Source: Escherichia coli (lineage in GTDB: Bacteria; Pseudomonadota; Gammaproteobacteria; Enterobacterales; Enterobacteriaceae). From it: DNA of 64,000 nucleotides. Each line of letters starts with the position of its first letter. Position 1 is the stretch's first letter. Shown piece after piece: positions 36,001 through 45,000 of the stretch. The DNA lies in the NCBI RefSeq assembly GCF_003991155.1, contig NZ_CP031293.1; one strand, 5' to 3'. The position numbers were made by a program.

Positions 36001-39000
36001 CGTCAGTCCGGAGACGACAGTCGGGTTATCTCAGAGTGCCTGAGATATTGCCTGGTTGGAGATCACTTCAGGGACTCTGCGCATTTTTTACGGCGTGGTT
36101 AATCCGTATGAACGAAACCATACGGAGATTTAACCATGACCTACAAATACAACCCCTTCTGGCAGCAACGTATTCGTGAGACGGTGCGGCACGCACTGGA
36201 TGTTCATCCCCGTCTGACGGCATTGCGGGTTGATCTGCGTCTCCCGGATGTACCGGCAGCAACGGACGCGGCTGTGATATCCCGCTTCATCAATGCCCTG
36301 AAAGCCCGAATCGACGCTTACCAGAAACGTAAGCATCGGGAAGGTAAACGCGTGCATTCCTCGACCCTGCATTACGCCTGGGCCCGGGAGTTCGGGGAGC
36401 TTAAAGGCAAAAAACACTATCACCTGCTGCTGCTGGTCAACCGGGATACCTGGTGTCGTGCCGGCGATTACCGCGCTCCGGGGTCACTGGCCGGAATGAT
36501 TAAACAGGCGTGGTGCAGTGCCCTGGGAGTGGATGTCGGGTGCCATGCCACGCTGGTGCATTTTCCGGCCTGGCCGGCGGTGTGGCTGGAACGCGATGAT
36601 GATGCTGGTTTACGGGATATGCTGAAGCGTGCTGACTATCTCGCGAAAGAGTACACCAAAGTCAACGGTACCGGTGAGCGCAATTTTGGCTGTAGCCGGA
36701 GTTGAGCACGACTGGCGCGCCAATATCCGGCAAACCAAAAGTATGGGTTGTTGTCTGGCGGCAACGATGTATCCACTCGCCCACTGACTGTTTTTTACGT
36801 CAGTGTTCCATTGTGTGACAACCACAGTGCTGTAACAGCAACCAGCCTGCTTTACCCAAACTCCAGTCCAGATTTTAACTGAACCGCCATTCACACCCTG
36901 ACCACGCTGCCCGTACCGGGACGGCTGTTGCCTGCGTGTCGTCTGACGGTAAGGAACATATACTATGTACGCAAAATCCTTTCTCGCTCTTGATAGCAAC
37001 GGACGTCTGACGGGCGCCCGTACTGCACAGGCCGCACCTTATGCTCACTACACCTGCCACTTGTGTGGCAGTGCACTCAGATACCATCCGCAATACGACA
37101 CTGAACTTCCCTGGTTTGAACACACTGACGACAGGCTGACAGAGCACGGTCAACAGTGCCCTTATGTCAGGCCGGAGCGCAGAGAAATACAGTTGATTAA
37201 ACGTCTGCAGCAATTCGTACCGGATGCCTTACCCGTGGTGCGTAAAGCCAGCTGGCACTGCAGACAATGTCACCACGATTATTATGGGGAGCAGTACTGC
37301 ACAAACTGCCAGACCGGAGGATTCAGTATTCCCCGGACAACTCAGGAGGAAATATGCGAATTCTGAACTGTTATATGGCGAATGACAGCAAAGGCCATTT
37401 TGTTACGGCGAAAGAAGCTGCGAAGCACAACCGACAGGACGTTTTGTGCTGTGTGTCCTGTGGATGCCCGTTAACACTTCAGCGGGGCAATGACGGACAA
37501 CCACCGTGGTTTGAACATGACCAGATGACTGTCGCTGAAAAAATCCTGCTGCGATGTACCTGGCTTGACCCGGCAGAGAAAGAGGCCCGTCGTTTGCATC
37601 TGCAGGGCATGACGGTTCCGGATTATACGGTGAAGGTGAGAAAGTGGTTTTGTGTGATGTGTGACGAAGATTATGAGGGGGAAAAGTGCTGCCCACGCTG
37701 CGGTACCGGGGTATACAGCAGGGCGTGGGGGCGGCAGGAGGTGCCGTCGGAAGATGCCAGGGCTGATAATCCGTTACAGAGGCTGTAATGGTTGCCTCCG
37801 GAGCAGTTTGCGGTAATGCCGTTCCCGGGAATGGATTGCCAGTGCGGGGACTGTGGAGCTTAATTCCGGTGTTGGTGGCCTTTCCGTTGATTTTGAGCCA
37901 ACAGCCCTCCTGTGACTGACAGGCTGCCTCGTCATTCCATTCGTATCTCCAGTAACAGGGGGTTGTATTGTATTTTAATGTGCCGGTTCAGGCGTGCGTT
38001 TCCCGGCGCGTCTGCACCGGCTTAACCAAATTCAACAGGGATAAAATAGTGTAAATAACCGAAGTATTACTTGAAGAATCGGGGGAAGCATCCGGGGTTT
38101 TATTCAACAGGCATGGGAGGCTCCGGCTCTGACAGACATTGTACTGTGGAATGTTGTTACAGGTTGGGGCGGCAACCGTGCCAGGAGACCATGAGCCGTT
38201 CACGGCATTAAAGGCCACACTTCAGTCGTTTACATTCCCTGTGGTGGCAGGCATCTTCCGTTAAGGCGTCAGAGCGTTACCAACGTTATGTTGTCATGGC
38301 TCACCTTTCATAGTCGATGCTTATCTGGTGACTGAAACTAGCCGCAGATAAAGAGTGTGAAGTTGATACCATGGAGTGGAGTGACGTGCAGGCAGGAGAT
38401 TCGCTCTATGCAGGGTTGTGAGATGAATTCAAACCGGCTGTCAGCGCCAGTAATATTTGAAGATTCGTCCGGTTGTTATCCAGTGTGCATTAAAAACCCA
38501 GACATTATGGACAATACAACGGCTTCCATAACAGGGAGGAGCCTGTTTATTATCCGGGCGTAATGACTAACCTTTGTGGGCTTTTTCCCGTCGTGCTTTT
38601 AACGTTGAAGGCATTTTCTGCCTGCCGATTCAGGACAGCGACAAAAGCCATATCAGACTATTGGTCAATGATGACCAGCGTCTGGAGTAGATGATAAGCC
38701 AAATTGATAAACTGGAATATGTGATGAAAGTGCAACGTAATCAGTCCAATCCGACGATGTTTAACAAGAGTACGGTGTTTTTTCAGTAAGTCATTCGTCT
38801 TCTGAATCAGGTGTAATGATCTTTACAGAAGCATTCCGGCAGTGCGTAACATAATCTGCCGGTAACGGACGCTCGCTAATCAGAACATCAAATGCAGAGA
38901 GCGGTGCGAGGCTGGCAGAGGCTACTTCATCGAACAAGGCGTGGCGGGCGAGCAAAATTTTCCTTAGTCCACGGGCCATCGCTTTACGCTTAGTGGCAAG

Positions 39001-42000: not shown

Positions 42001-45000
42001 TTCAGGGATATATTGCAGATATGTTCCACTCACTACAGCTTTCATTCCTGGTTTCTATGCTCTGCTTTGTCTATGTCGGAGTCTACTTCTGGCGTGAAAG
42101 CAAAGTACGTACCGCACTGGCTGAAGTCACAGCGTCCTGAGGAGAACCGTTATGAGTACGCGTATTAATTTGTGGCGGGCGCTTTTTGGCGAGAAACCTC
42201 GTATCTTGCTGGAAAATAGTGATTTTACTGTCACGTCTTTTCGATATGACAGCGGTGTCGAGGGGCTTAAAATTGCAAACAGTCGTGGACATTTGATTAT
42301 TCTTCCCTGGATGGGGCAGATGATTTGGGATGCGCAATTTGATGGACACGGCCTCACCATGTGCAATATGTTTCGCCAGCCTAAACCGGCGACAGAGGTG
42401 ATAGAGACCTATGGCTGTTTTGCTTTTCATTCAGGTTTGCTGGCTAATGGCTGCCCATCTGCGGAAGATACTCATCTGCTACACGGTGAAATGGCCTGTG
42501 CCGCGATGGATGAAGCATGGCTGGAATTAGACGGAGATATGTTACGCCTTAACGGGCGTTACGAGTATGTAATGGGTTTCGGTCATCATTATCTGGCTCA
42601 GCCAACAGTGGTCCTTCACAAATCCTCTACACTGTTCGATATTAAGATGGCCGTAACCAATCTGGCTTCTGTAGATATGCCACTACAATATATGTGCCAC
42701 ATGAATTATGCATATATACCAAATGCTACATTCAGCCAGAATATCCCGGACGAAATATTAAGATTGCGTGAATCAGTGCCTTCGCATGTTAATCCCACCG
42801 CTCAGTGGCTGGCGTTTAATCAACGGATTATGCAGGGAGAAGCCTCTCTGTCGACGCTGAGTCAACCGGAATTTTATGATCCAGAAATTGTCTTCTTTGC
42901 AGACAAACTGGACGCTTATACAGATCAGCCAGAGTTTCGCATGATCTCTCCCGATGGCACCACGTTTGTTACTCGTTTCTACAGTGCTGAACTAAATTAT
43001 GTGACACGCTGGATCCTTTATAACGGAGAGCAACAGGTAGCCGCCTTTGCATTACCTGCAACCTGTCGGCCTGAGGGGTATCTTGCCGCGCAACGTAATG
43101 GCACGCTGATTCAGGTTGCACCGCAGCAAACGCGCACTTTTACAGTCACCACAGGAATTGAATAACCACTCAAGGCCTGAACAGCGGCGCGCTTATCGTT
43201 AAGGTAAGCGCGTTTTTTACCCGCCAGGACAAGACTATGATAGCGTTGCCCTTATAGACGATCACATTATCGTCCACTCCAAATTTGCGCAACTACTGTA
43301 GAGTGGTGTACTCCACAGCTTCTTTGAGGAGCTTAACCTCCATTGTTTTCTTACCGAGCAAGCACTGCAACTCTTTTATTTATTTGTAGTGGTCAACAAA
43401 AACTGGTCACAATTTCAGTTTTTTTCCAGTATCTATTTTCCGATTCGTTCGGCGGTAATCCACCGTTATATTCATGAGGCCGGAGTGCACTATAAAAGTG
43501 TATGCGTAAACCGACTGCTGTATGTAGCCATTAAGCCAGTATTGGTAACATAGGTACCCACCTTTTCAACTAGTGGACACCTGTTATGGAACAAAAAACA
43601 TTATCAGCTGAACCCCGCAGGTTATTTTCAAATGAGTTTAAACTTCAAATGGTTAAACTGGCTTTACAACCAAGGGGTTCTGTTGCCCGTATTGCCCGGG
43701 AGCATGATATCAATGATAATCTTCTGTTCAAATGGCTCAGGCTCTCGCTGATCAAAGGGCGTATATCACGGCGTCTTCCGGTAACGAACTCTTCTGGCAT
43801 TGGCGTTGAATTATTACCTGTGGAGATGACGCTGGATGAGCGGCCTTACCCCGTTTTTTACGCGAGGTAATTATGAAGATCAATGACTAGCCGTCGAACC
43901 GCGTGCATGAACTGCTGCACTGAAACTTCTCAGCTGTAAAATAATCCTTACGCTACGTACTTCTCGGAGCGCTTACGATTAATCGGATGCAGTCCTGACT
44001 GGAAGAAAGAAAAATGGAGAAAATAAGAGGAATTAATATCCTCCACGTTCCTGAAATCCTGGAGGATATTAATGTCATCAAAATATTAGCGAACGATAAT
44101 CCCTAACAAAATACCCAGTGCGCCAAAGTCAGCATCACTGAAGGTGGTGTTAGCAAAACCAATATCACCCAGCACCGGCAATAAGAATACTGGCAGGAAG
44201 GTAATAAGCAAGCCCTGAGCGAAGGCACCCAAAATCGCACCACGACGTCCACCCGTTGCATTACCGAATACCCCTGCAGCTGCACCTACGAAGAAGTGCG
44301 GCACCACACCAGGAATAATCACGATCATGTTCAGCAGATACAACGTGAACATACCGATTAAACCTGCAGCAAAGCTACTCAGGAAACCAACCAGTACAGC
44401 GTTAGGTGCGTAAGGGAAGACGACCGGGCAATCGAGAGCAGGTCTGGCATTCGGAACCAGCTTGTCTGAAATACCTTTGAATGCCGGGACAATCTCCGCA
44501 ATCACCATGCGCACACCCTGCAGAATGATGTACACGCCAGCTGCGAAGGTAATGGATTGCATGATAGAGAACATGAACCAGTTTTTACCACCGCTAAGCT
44601 CTTTCACCGCATCTGCACCCGCAAACAGGCACGTCACCAGGAAAATTATGCTCATGGTAAAAGAGATAGCAACCGGCGTGTCGCGCAAGAACAGCAGACT
44701 TTTCGGCACATTCATGTCTTCAGTCGAGTGCTCTTTATTACCAAACTTGCTGCCGATGAAACCGGCCAATACATAAGATAATGTTGAGAAGTGGCCGATG
44801 GCAACGTCATCAGAACCGGTCACTTTCTTCATGTACGGATGCGCAATAGCCGGGAAAAAGACCATTGCCACGCCAACAACCAAAGAGCCAACGGCTATAA
44901 GCGTAACGCCGGTCATGCCTGCTGTTGCCAGAATTACCGCTACCATCATCGACATAAACAACGTGTGATGACCGGTCAGGAAGATAAATTTCCACGGTGT

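What the first reader, a model, noticed from the sequence alone, without database searches (positions are those of the whole stretch)
38791..43220. Deoxyribose utilisation operon (deoQ/deoKPX-like) as island cargo
A DeoR-type regulator is divergent from a ribokinase-family kinase, an MFS permease and an aldose-epimerase-like gene, ending in a clean terminator. This matches the accessory deoxyribose catabolic operon described in pathogenic E. coli and Salmonella.
Basis: partly seen in the sequence, partly recalled or inferred. Interest (0 to 1): 0.4.

Follow-up and report, generated by a model that had tools for sequence, protein, structure and literature searches.

The report
Known deoxyribose-use operon on E. 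coli island
This is the already-described deoQ/deoKPX gene set, which lets some E. coli strains take up the DNA sugar 2-deoxyribose and use it as food, carried here on a large pheV genomic island; it is an ordinary, well-known accessory operon.

Summary
The observation and the interpretation both hold. Window 38791-43218 holds intact deoQ (-), deoK, deoP and deoX (+) and a conserved terminator. The kinase is 96% identical to the Salmonella deoxyribokinase orthologue and 36.5% to K-12 RbsK. It has Met10 where RbsK has Asn14. The exact DeoQ protein falls in the UniRef cluster represented by Q67FX4_ECOLX, named "DeoQ". The locus is 99.6% identical to those of CFT073 and Nissle 1917, and Nissle is reported to grow on 2-deoxy-D-ribose. 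It occurs in 1,593 of 5,426 complete E. coli genomes. In the window it lies on a pheV island, next to the vpe-type PTS operon, as published. RefSeq's names "rbsK" and "fucP" mislead.

Two smaller points. (1) Every E. coli copy examined carries remnants of ilvN and uhpA, the genes that flank the operon in Salmonella and Citrobacter. The ilvN remnant is closest to E. coli's own ilvN, and synonymous sites against Salmonella are saturated. So the often-repeated "transferred from Salmonella enterica" is not supported as a recent event. (2) DeoX is predicted to have a galactose-mutarotase fold, consistent with a deoxyribose mutarotase or pyranase, but that function is untested.

Novelty: already known. 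Interest: low.

The parts
38552..38790 (+). ilvN' remnant: the 3' part of an acetolactate synthase small-subunit gene (IlvN residues about 27-96), with one in-frame stop and a 1-bp deletion, abutting the deoQ stop codon
   Evidence: 89.5% identical to K-12 ilvN over 239 bp, against 76-81.5% to Salmonella, Citrobacter and the other genera. Annotated as a pseudogene in RefSeq. Present next to deoQ in every E. coli context examined.
38791..39573 (-). deoQ: DeoR-family repressor of the deoxyribose regulon (260 aa)
   Evidence: Pfam HTH_DeoR plus DeoRC. 230 bits to the DeoR equivalog model, just under its cut-off of 244. The exact protein is in the UniRef cluster Q67FX4_ECOLX, 'DeoQ'. 82% identical to Salmonella DeoQ.
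39574..39875 (.). 302-bp divergent control region. Conserved elements: palindrome AATGTTAT-N4-ATAACATT (39589-39608) plus AACAT (39621-39625); ACTATAC (39641-39647), which reads as a TATAGT -10 on the deoQ strand; CRP-like AATCGCGATC-N4-TCACAAATG (39785-39807); palindrome TAACATGCTAATGTTA (39817-39832); RBS AGAGG (39864-39868)
   Evidence: These blocks are invariant or nearly so in 15 taxa, while the rest of the region is free to vary (alignment A3). Palindromes found. A promoter-like site on the - strand at 39669-39641. Assigning them as DeoQ operators and a CRP site is an inference.
39876..40796 (+). deoK: deoxyribokinase (306 aa, PfkB / ribokinase family)
   Evidence: 95.8% identical to the S. 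enterica subsp. salamae orthologue, whose UniRef name is 'Deoxyribokinase', and 36.5% to K-12 RbsK. Met10 is present here and in 80 of 80 scorable orthologues. The same protein accession, WP_000350265.1, is annotated in CFT073.
40824..42140 (+). deoP: MFS permease of the FucP subfamily, the presumed deoxyribose:H+ symporter (438 aa)
   Evidence: TIGR00885 at 324 bits, above its cut-off, but the E. coli FucP equivalog NF007524 scores 285 against a cut-off of 427. 96.3% identical to Salmonella DeoP. UniRef cluster Q67FX2_ECOLX.
42152..43165 (+). deoX: DUF4432 protein with a predicted galactose-mutarotase-like fold (337 aa); the proposed deoxyribose mutarotase or pyranase
   Evidence: Pfam PF14486. 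AlphaFold2 model with pLDDT 83 and pTM 0.84. Foldseek top hit 3ty1, a putative aldose 1-epimerase (TM 0.73), and also GalM 1l7k. Always adjacent to deoKP in the 80 loci.
43166..43298 (+). Remnant of the ancestral ilvN-uhpA intergenic region plus the first ~60 bp of uhpA (frameshifted). It contains the intrinsic terminator 43188-43218
   Evidence: 85.5% identical to the K-12 ilvN-uhpA junction. The hairpin CGCGCTTATCGTTAAGGTAAGCGCG plus its T-run is invariant after ilvN in K-12 and after deoX in Salmonella and Raoultella. Fold -25 kcal/mol, z = -3.1.

Best explanation
This is the accessory 2-deoxy-D-ribose utilisation regulon deoQ/deoKPX of E. coli, intact and carried on a pheV genomic island.

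Proposed mechanism:
1. DeoP, an MFS permease of the FucP subfamily, imports free deoxyribose (inferred from family and context).
2. DeoX, with a mutarotase-like fold, speeds interconversion of anomers or ring forms, so that the furanose form needed for C5 phosphorylation is available (inferred, not demonstrated).
3. DeoK uses ATP to make deoxyribose-5-phosphate (shown for the Salmonella enzyme in the literature and inferred here from 96% identity and Met10).
4. The core-genome aldolase DeoC splits that product into glyceraldehyde-3-phosphate and acetaldehyde (established pathway).

Regulation: DeoQ, transcribed divergently, represses deoKPX and itself through the conserved ATGTTA/TAACAT palindromes. 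A CRP-like site confers catabolite control. A conserved hairpin ends the transcript.

History: the E. coli module was cut once from an ilvN-uhpA chromosomal site and now moves between islands as a roughly 9.5-kb block, together with the vpe-type PTS operon.
For: Identity:
- ORFs and families.
- DeoK 95.8%, DeoP 96.3%, DeoQ 82% and DeoX 83% identical to the Salmonella genes lying between ilvN and uhpA.
- DeoK is 36.5% identical to RbsK, and Met10 is conserved in 80 of 80 scorable orthologues.
- UniRef names DeoQ / Q67FX4_ECOLX and 'Deoxyribokinase'.
- DeoK = STM3793, a deoxyribose kinase in Salmonella Typhimurium (PMC13432705).

Pathway:
- DeoK plus DeoC is the known route (PMC6365646).
- deoC is present in 5,423 of 5,426 E. 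coli genomes.

Phenotype link:
- 99.6% DNA identity to Nissle 1917 and CFT073.
- Nissle grows on 2-deoxy-D-ribose and carries deoQKPX, while K-12 does neither.

Island context:
- A pheV island with the published order cdiA - vpe - deoK - Ag43.

Regulation:
- Palindromes, a CRP-like block and a -10 are conserved in 15 taxa.
- Terminator.

DeoX fold.
Against: - No growth or enzyme data exist for this particular strain.
- The primary papers (Tourneux 2000, Christensen 2003, Bernier-Febreau 2004, Martinez-Jehanne 2009) were not retrievable. The details on DeoQ operators, DeoR co-repression, Met10 mutagenesis and the deoX deletion phenotype therefore rest on my memory of their abstracts.
- RefSeq names the genes rbsK and fucP, and DeoK does pass the generic ribokinase model TIGR02152.
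- Salmonella DeoK also phosphorylates ribose.
- DeoX has no detectable sequence similarity to characterised mutarotases, so its catalytic residues could not be checked.
Confidence: 0.93

Rival explanations
1. It is a second ribose or fucose uptake-and-phosphorylation operon, as the RefSeq names 'rbsK: ribokinase' and 'fucP: L-fucose:H+ symporter' suggest, and has no particular connection with deoxyribose.
For: PGAP gives these names. DeoK scores 369 bits against TIGR02152 ribokinase (cut-off 300) and DeoP scores 324 bits against TIGR00885 fucP (cut-off 280). Salmonella DeoK does phosphorylate ribose and can support growth on it.
Against: - Only 36.5% identity to RbsK, against 96% to Salmonella DeoK.
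- Both E. coli-specific equivalog models fail their cut-offs: NF008353 at 252 against 341, and NF007524 at 285 against 427.
- Met10 replaces the ribose-2'-OH-contacting Asn14.
- No rbsDACB or fucAOIKUR genes lie nearby.
- A published note says pipelines cannot separate deoK from rbsK or deoP from fucP (PMC10926698).
Confidence: 0.03
2. The operon is a decaying, non-functional passenger of the island in this strain, like the ilvN and uhpA fragments beside it.
For: It is surrounded by pseudogenes and IS remnants. GC3 has drifted down to 34-47%. Deletion alleles exist elsewhere, for example a 108-bp deletion in deoX in metagenome contig L094 and truncated copies such as H74.
Against: - All four ORFs are full length.
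- dN is low against Salmonella and Citrobacter (0.02-0.03 for deoK and deoP) while synonymous sites are saturated, which indicates purifying selection.
- The DeoK protein is identical across E. coli lineages whose DNA differs by up to 2.5%.
- Regulatory elements and the terminator are intact.
Confidence: 0.04

Closest known systems
deoQKPX 2-deoxy-D-ribose utilisation regulon of Salmonella enterica (Tourneux et al. 2000; Christensen et al. 2003; DeoK = STM3793)
   Same: - The same four genes in the same order and orientation, with the same protein lengths (DeoK 306, DeoP 438, DeoX 337 aa).
- DeoK and DeoP are 96% identical, DeoQ and DeoX 82-83%.
- The operator-like palindromes, the CRP-like site and the terminator are conserved.
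   Different: - In Salmonella the regulon sits in the chromosome backbone between intact ilvN and uhpA. Here it is on a pheV island with only stumps of those genes.
- DNA identity is only about 80%, with saturated synonymous sites, and GC3 is 15-20 points lower.
- The central part of the intergenic region is unrelated.
deoK operon of pathogenic E. coli (AL862 PAI, CFT073, Nissle 1917, LEE-negative STEC 'LAC' PAI; Bernier-Febreau 2004, Martinez-Jehanne 2009)
   Same: - It is the same element: 97.5-100% DNA identity across 1,593 genomes, and 99.6% to CFT073 and Nissle.
- The same ilvN' stump in every context examined.
- The same neighbouring PTS/LacI (vpe-type) operon in most contexts; it is truncated by an IS66-family insertion in Ecol_732.
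- pheV location and the cdiA - vpe - deoK - Ag43 order as published.
   Different: Nothing of substance. The allele in the window is the 100% class (for example Combat2C1, MS 200-1, FDAARGOS_1284). CFT073 carries the block at about 300 kb, in a different island.
rbsDACBK-rbsR ribose operon of E. coli K-12
   Same: A PfkB-family pentose kinase that phosphorylates C5. The operon also contains a sugar ring-form converter: RbsD pyranase there, and possibly DeoX here.
   Different: 36.5% kinase identity. An MFS permease instead of an ABC transporter. A DeoR-family regulator instead of a LacI-family one. DeoX is unrelated in fold to RbsD. Met10 instead of Asn14.
Galactose mutarotase (GalM) / aldose 1-epimerase superfamily
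   Same: The predicted DeoX fold matches 3ty1, 3mwx, 4bze and 1l7k (Foldseek E from 6e-13 to 1e-6).
   Different: 10-15% identity. No sequence-level match to GalM or to any PDB chain. The substrate and the catalytic residues have not been established.

Membership tests
deoQKPX deoxyribose regulon | A deoxyribokinase orthologue: 306 aa, about 35% identical to RbsK, and highly similar to Salmonella DeoK | tested here: met
   306 aa. 95.8% identical to the Salmonella positional orthologue and 36.5% to K-12 RbsK. In the same 90% cluster as entries named 'Deoxyribokinase'.
deoQKPX deoxyribose regulon | Met10 in DeoK where RbsK has Asn14 (the specificity residue; Tourneux 2000, recalled from memory) | tested here: met
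   The window DeoK begins MDIAVIGSNM(10)VD, and K-12 RbsK begins ...LGSIN(14)AD. Met is present in 80 of 80 scorable orthologues.
deoQKPX deoxyribose regulon | The operon order deoK-deoP-deoX, with a divergent DeoR-family deoQ across a roughly 300-bp control region | tested here: met
   The intergenic region is 302 bp here and 324 bp in S. salamae. The same layout occurs in the other species loci.
deoQKPX deoxyribose regulon | Conserved repressor operators and catabolite control in the intergenic region | tested here: inconclusive
   The palindromes and a CRP-like block are invariant in 15 taxa. Protein binding was not tested, and the published footprints could not be read.
deoQKPX deoxyribose regulon | Confers growth on 2-deoxy-D-ribose; DeoK has deoxyribokinase activity | not testable with these tools
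   Indirect evidence only. Nissle 1917, whose locus is 99.6% identical, grows on 2-deoxy-D-ribose while K-12 does not.
deoQKPX deoxyribose regulon | The downstream aldolase DeoC is available in the host | tested here: met
   deoC is present in 5,423 of 5,426 complete E. coli genomes. The window itself does not include it.
Ribokinase RbsK (orthologue of E. coli rbsK) | Passes the E. coli-type equivalog model and sits in an rbs transport context | tested here: not met
   NF008353 scores 252 bits against a cut-off of 341. No rbs genes are nearby. Asn14 is replaced. DeoK does pass the broad TIGR02152 model, which explains the RefSeq name.
L-fucose:H+ symporter FucP (orthologue) | Passes the E. coli FucP equivalog model and sits in a fuc regulon context | tested here: not met
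   NF007524 scores 285 bits against a cut-off of 427, although TIGR00885 passes. No fuc genes are nearby.
Aldose 1-epimerase / galactose mutarotase superfamily (DeoX) | A mutarotase beta-sandwich fold | tested here: met
   The model has pLDDT 83. Foldseek hits to 3ty1, 3mwx, 4bze and 1l7k at probability 1.00. This is a prediction, not a solved structure.
Aldose 1-epimerase / galactose mutarotase superfamily (DeoX) | The catalytic His/His/Asp/Glu set of GalM is conserved | tested here: inconclusive
   hhalign against E. coli GalM gives a probability of 1.5%. Invariant His, Asp and Glu residues exist in DeoX (H93, H111, H183, D251, E308), but their equivalence could not be established without a residue-level structural alignment.
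tRNA-associated genomic (pathogenicity) island | An accessory distribution, a tRNA gene plus an integrase at one end, mobile-element debris, and atypical composition | tested here: met
   - Present in 29% of genomes.
- tRNA-Phe plus a tyrosine recombinase in the collinear genome, outside the window; there is no tRNA inside the window.
- IS remnants.
- GC of 40-47%, against about 56% for the flanking-type core genes.

The most novel reading that the evidence does not exclude
The E. coli deoQKPX module was not imported from Salmonella enterica, as reviews repeat. It is instead the Escherichia-lineage orthologue of an operon that is ancestral at the ilvN-uhpA site of Enterobacteriaceae.

On this reading it was excised once, taking 239 bp of ilvN and about 130 bp of the ilvN-uhpA junction with it. 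It was lost from the native site, where K-12 shows a clean empty site. It has since survived only on islands, drifting towards AT.

In addition, DeoX would be a dedicated deoxyribose mutarotase or pyranase, which would give DUF4432 a function.
Probability: 0.45. Interest if true: 0.25.

Novelty: already known. Interest (0 to 1): 0.1.

Why it matters
Practically, the result corrects the RefSeq labels ("rbsK", "fucP", "aldose 1-epimerase family") for a locus present in about 29% of complete E. coli genomes. Published work links that locus to gut colonisation and to competitiveness of pathogenic strains. Metabolic models built from those labels miss growth on deoxyribose.

The evolutionary footnote is a neat but minor example of a backbone operon surviving only as island cargo. 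It rests on the ilvN and uhpA stumps, the saturated synonymous sites and the absence of any close relative outside E. coli.

DeoX remains the one gene in the pathway without a demonstrated activity.

Tried and rejected
- **Primary papers.** PMC517565, PMC225019, PMC2663165 and PMC94358 are not held. I used secondary open-access papers and flagged what I recalled from memory.
- **Consensus terminator scan.** It did not list the deoX terminator. Folding and conservation were used instead.
- **DeoX against PDB sequences.** Neither the single sequence nor the profile gave a true hit. The formylglycine-enzyme matches at E about 1.5 are noise.
- **hhalign of the DeoX profile against E. coli GalM.** Probability 1.5%, so the catalytic residues could not be mapped.
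- **Rfam on 37800-44100.** Nothing reached threshold.
- **An E. coli genome with deoQKPX still at the native ilvN-uhpA site.** The four divergent-allele contexts inspected are all island copies with the ilvN stump. The two records in the 90-95% band disappeared when the stumps were left out of the query.
- **An intermediate donor lineage among 5.8 billion protein clusters.** There is a gap between 97% and 84% identity. The 89% fragment is the E. coli allele with a 108-bp deletion, and the 84% contig is Pseudocitrobacter.
- **S. Typhimurium LT2.** It did not appear among the 80 loci returned by the genome scan. Subspecies salamae, arizonae and diarizonae served as the Salmonella references.
- **The 447 bp left of the ilvN stump (38105-38551).** It is not an IS. 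It is single-copy and found only with the deo block.
- **Literature on DUF4432, PF14486 or deoX function.** Nothing relevant turned up.

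
Full report
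**What is there.** The window is E. coli. It is 99.99% collinear with the chromosome of strain FDAARGOS_1284, NZ_CP070170.1. The reported interval holds four intact ORFs:
- deoQ, 38791-39573, minus strand, 260 aa
- deoK, 39876-40796, 306 aa
- deoP, 40824-42140, 438 aa
- deoX, 42152-43165, 337 aa

Family searches give a DeoR-type regulator (HTH_DeoR plus DeoRC), a PfkB / ribokinase-family kinase, an MFS permease of the FucP subfamily and a DUF4432 protein.

A strong hairpin follows deoX: a 10-bp stem at 43188-43197 / 43203-43212 and then T6. It folds at -25 kcal/mol with z = -3.1. The simple consensus scan did not list it.

**What it is.** The closest annotated relatives settle the identity.
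- The window's exact DeoQ protein belongs to the UniRef cluster represented by Q67FX4_ECOLX, named "DeoQ". The permease belongs to Q67FX2_ECOLX.
- The kinase shares its 90% cluster with Salmonella and Citrobacter entries named "Deoxyribokinase".
- In S. enterica subsp. salamae the same four genes, in the same order and orientation, lie between ilvBN and uhpABCT.
- Against that locus the window proteins are 82% (DeoQ), 95.8% (DeoK), 96.3% (DeoP) and 83% (DeoX) identical. DeoK is only 36.5% identical to K-12 RbsK.
- From memory of Tourneux et al. 2000 (not retrievable), Met10 of DeoK, in place of Asn14 of RbsK, is the residue that discriminates deoxyribose from ribose. The window protein has Met10, as do all 80 scorable orthologues, and K-12 RbsK has Asn14.
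- A 2026 paper confirms that DeoK (STM3793) is the deoxyribose kinase of S. Typhimurium and that it can also phosphorylate ribose (PMC13432705).

**Phenotype link and distribution.**
- The full locus is in 1,593 of 5,426 complete E. coli genomes, with alleles 97.5-100% identical. CFT073, Nissle 1917 and 83972 are at 99.6%, and strain 536 at 98.3%.
- Nissle 1917 grows on 2-deoxy-D-ribose and carries deoQKPX. K-12 does neither (PMC7924626).
- The only previously known non-oxidative route is DeoK followed by the aldolase DeoC (PMC6365646). deoC is core, present in 5,423 of 5,426 genomes. The island therefore only has to supply uptake, phosphorylation and regulation.
- RefSeq labels the genes "rbsK", "fucP" and "aldose 1-epimerase family protein". 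DeoK and DeoP pass the broad TIGR models but fail the E. coli RbsK and FucP equivalog cut-offs. The same naming problem has been noted in print (PMC10926698).

**Regulation (inferred).** The 302-bp deoQ-deoK spacer was aligned across 15 taxa. Five blocks are invariant or nearly so within otherwise free sequence:
- AATGTTAT-N4-ATAACATT at 39589-39608, with a further AACAT at 39621-39625
- ACTATAC at 39641-39647, which reads as a TATAGT -10 on the deoQ strand and matches the promoter-like site
- AATCGCGATC-N4-TCACAAATG at 39785-39807, which resembles a CRP site (CGCGA-N6-TCACA)
- TAACATGCTAATGTTA at 39817-39832
- the ribosome-binding site, and the ATG at 39876

This fits what I recall of Christensen et al. 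2003: divergent promoters, tandem DeoQ operators in both promoter regions, and catabolite repression of deoKPX only. I could not read that paper, so the assignments are inference. No Rfam family matches the region.

**DeoX.**
- An AlphaFold2 model built on 30 orthologues (pLDDT 83, pTM 0.84) matches galactose-mutarotase-like structures. The best match is 3ty1, a putative aldose 1-epimerase (TM 0.73, 13% identity). B. subtilis and L. lactis GalM also match.
- Sequence methods cannot connect DeoX to GalM or to any PDB chain. The catalytic residues therefore remain unassigned.
- One Vibrio homologue is labelled "deoxyribose mutarotase" by its source. That is a name, not evidence.
- Because DeoK must act on the furanose form, a mutarotase or pyranase role, analogous to RbsD for ribose, is the most economical hypothesis.
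- The held literature says nothing about DeoX or DUF4432 function.

**Island context.**
- In the collinear genome the island runs from tRNA-Phe next to yqgA (pheV), with a tyrosine recombinase, to the kps capsule cluster and yghD, about 96 kb. The window holds no tRNA itself.
- The order cdiBA - LacI regulator / PTS (vpe type) - deoXPKQ - ... - Ag43 is the one published for pheV islands (PMC6455142; PMC7545054; PMC5382810).
- Five E. coli contexts were compared. A common block runs from window 38105 to about 47605, covering deoQKPX and the PTS operon, interrupted by different IS insertions. In Ecol_732 the PTS operon is truncated.
- CFT073 carries the block at about 300 kb, a different island.

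**An evolutionary footnote.**
- Homology to the Salmonella-type chromosomal locus does not stop at the genes. It begins at 38552, inside a 239-bp 3' stump of ilvN that abuts the deoQ stop codon. It ends at 43298, after the 75-bp ilvN-uhpA intergenic region and about 60 bp of a frameshifted uhpA.
- The terminator after deoX is the same invariant hairpin that follows ilvN in K-12. K-12 therefore looks like a clean empty site.
- Every E. coli copy examined has the same ilvN stump, which implies a single capture.
- The stump is 89.5% identical to K-12 ilvN but only 76-81.5% to Salmonella, Citrobacter, Raoultella and the other genera. It joins K-12 on a neighbour-joining tree, on a long branch as expected for a pseudogene.
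- The uhpA-side remnant is less decisive: 85.5% to K-12 against 84.7% to S. arizonae.
- Synonymous sites between the island genes and every sampled Salmonella or Citrobacter copy are saturated (pS 0.64-0.78). That is at least as deep as ilvB, ilvN, uhpA and uhpB between K-12 and the same genomes (pS 0.51-0.68). dN stays low.
- Part of the excess reflects an AT drift. GC3 is 34-47% in the island genes and 52-67% in the orthologues.
- Among 5.8 billion protein clusters there is no full-length DeoX between 97% and 84% identity.

[quoted passage not shown] The donor looks like an Escherichia-related chromosome. I could not check whether the 2004 paper already noted the stumps. Gene conversion of the stump by the resident ilvN remains a formal alternative.

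**Verdict.** This is a well-described accessory operon in a well-described island context, so novelty is "already known" and interest is low.

Noticed in passing
window 44086-47403: An ascorbate-type PTS operon (IIC 44086-45342, IIB 45355-45642, IIA 45658-46101, all on the minus strand) and a divergent LacI-family regulator (46372-47403). It corresponds in position to the published vpe carbohydrate-permease operon. It travels with deoQKPX as one block (38105-47605) in most E. coli islands examined, and is truncated by an IS66-family insertion in Ecol_732.
   Followed up: partly
window 38552-38790 and 43166-43298: Stumps of ilvN and of the ilvN-uhpA junction plus the uhpA 5' end flank the operon. 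The ilvN stump is nearest to E. coli's own ilvN (89.5%), not to Salmonella's (about 77%).
   Followed up: yes
window 38105-38551: A 447-bp unannotated segment to the left of the ilvN stump. It is single-copy, is found only in the roughly 1,594 genomes that carry the deo block, and is 95-100% conserved. Its origin is unknown and it is not an IS.
   Followed up: partly
window 39703-39708 and 39728-39733: Two direct TGTTAG motifs lie in the non-conserved middle of the deoQ-deoK spacer and are specific to the E. coli copy. They resemble half-sites of the E. coli DeoR operator (TGTTAGAA/TTCTAACA, recalled from memory). They might mediate DeoR cross-regulation.
   Followed up: no
window 43586-43870: An IS3-family transposase orfA remnant lies shortly after the truncated uhpA stump. 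Other strains have IS2 or ISEc23 inserted at nearby positions (about 43262 and about 43405), so this spot is a hotspot for IS insertion.
   Followed up: partly
window 49003-60988: A contact-dependent inhibition locus: cdiB (49003-50775), a 9.9-kb cdiA annotated as a tRNA-nuclease effector (50788-60654), and a small downstream ORF that is probably the immunity gene (60668-60988).
   Followed up: no
window 2882-16798: A group 2 capsule (kps) cluster. Its very AT-rich central part (GC 29-35% at about 4000-9000) is the serotype-specific region 2, which includes a galE-like gene and an O-acetyltransferase. The end of the gsp type II secretion operon and yghD lie at 1-1826.
   Followed up: no
window 18786-30558: CP4-57-type island backbone: the CbtA/YeeU toxin-antitoxin pair (19480-20312), antirestriction and JAB-domain genes, a frameshifted 2.5-kb gene (23554-26071), the autotransporter Ag43 (26192-29314, minus strand) and a GTPase.
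   Followed up: no
deoK, deoP and deoX annotation in RefSeq (for example NZ_CP070170.1): PGAP systematically names DeoK 'rbsK: ribokinase' and DeoP 'fucP: L-fucose:H+ symporter' in the E. coli genomes listed. The broad TIGR models pass while no DeoK- or DeoP-specific model exists.
   Followed up: yes
L094 (metagenome contig ERZ28658899) and P0056 (Salmonella Infantis): Variant alleles elsewhere: an E. coli-type deoX with an in-frame 108-bp deletion (window 42697-42804 missing), and a Salmonella entry in which DeoX and UhpA are called as one 524-aa fusion protein.
   Followed up: partly
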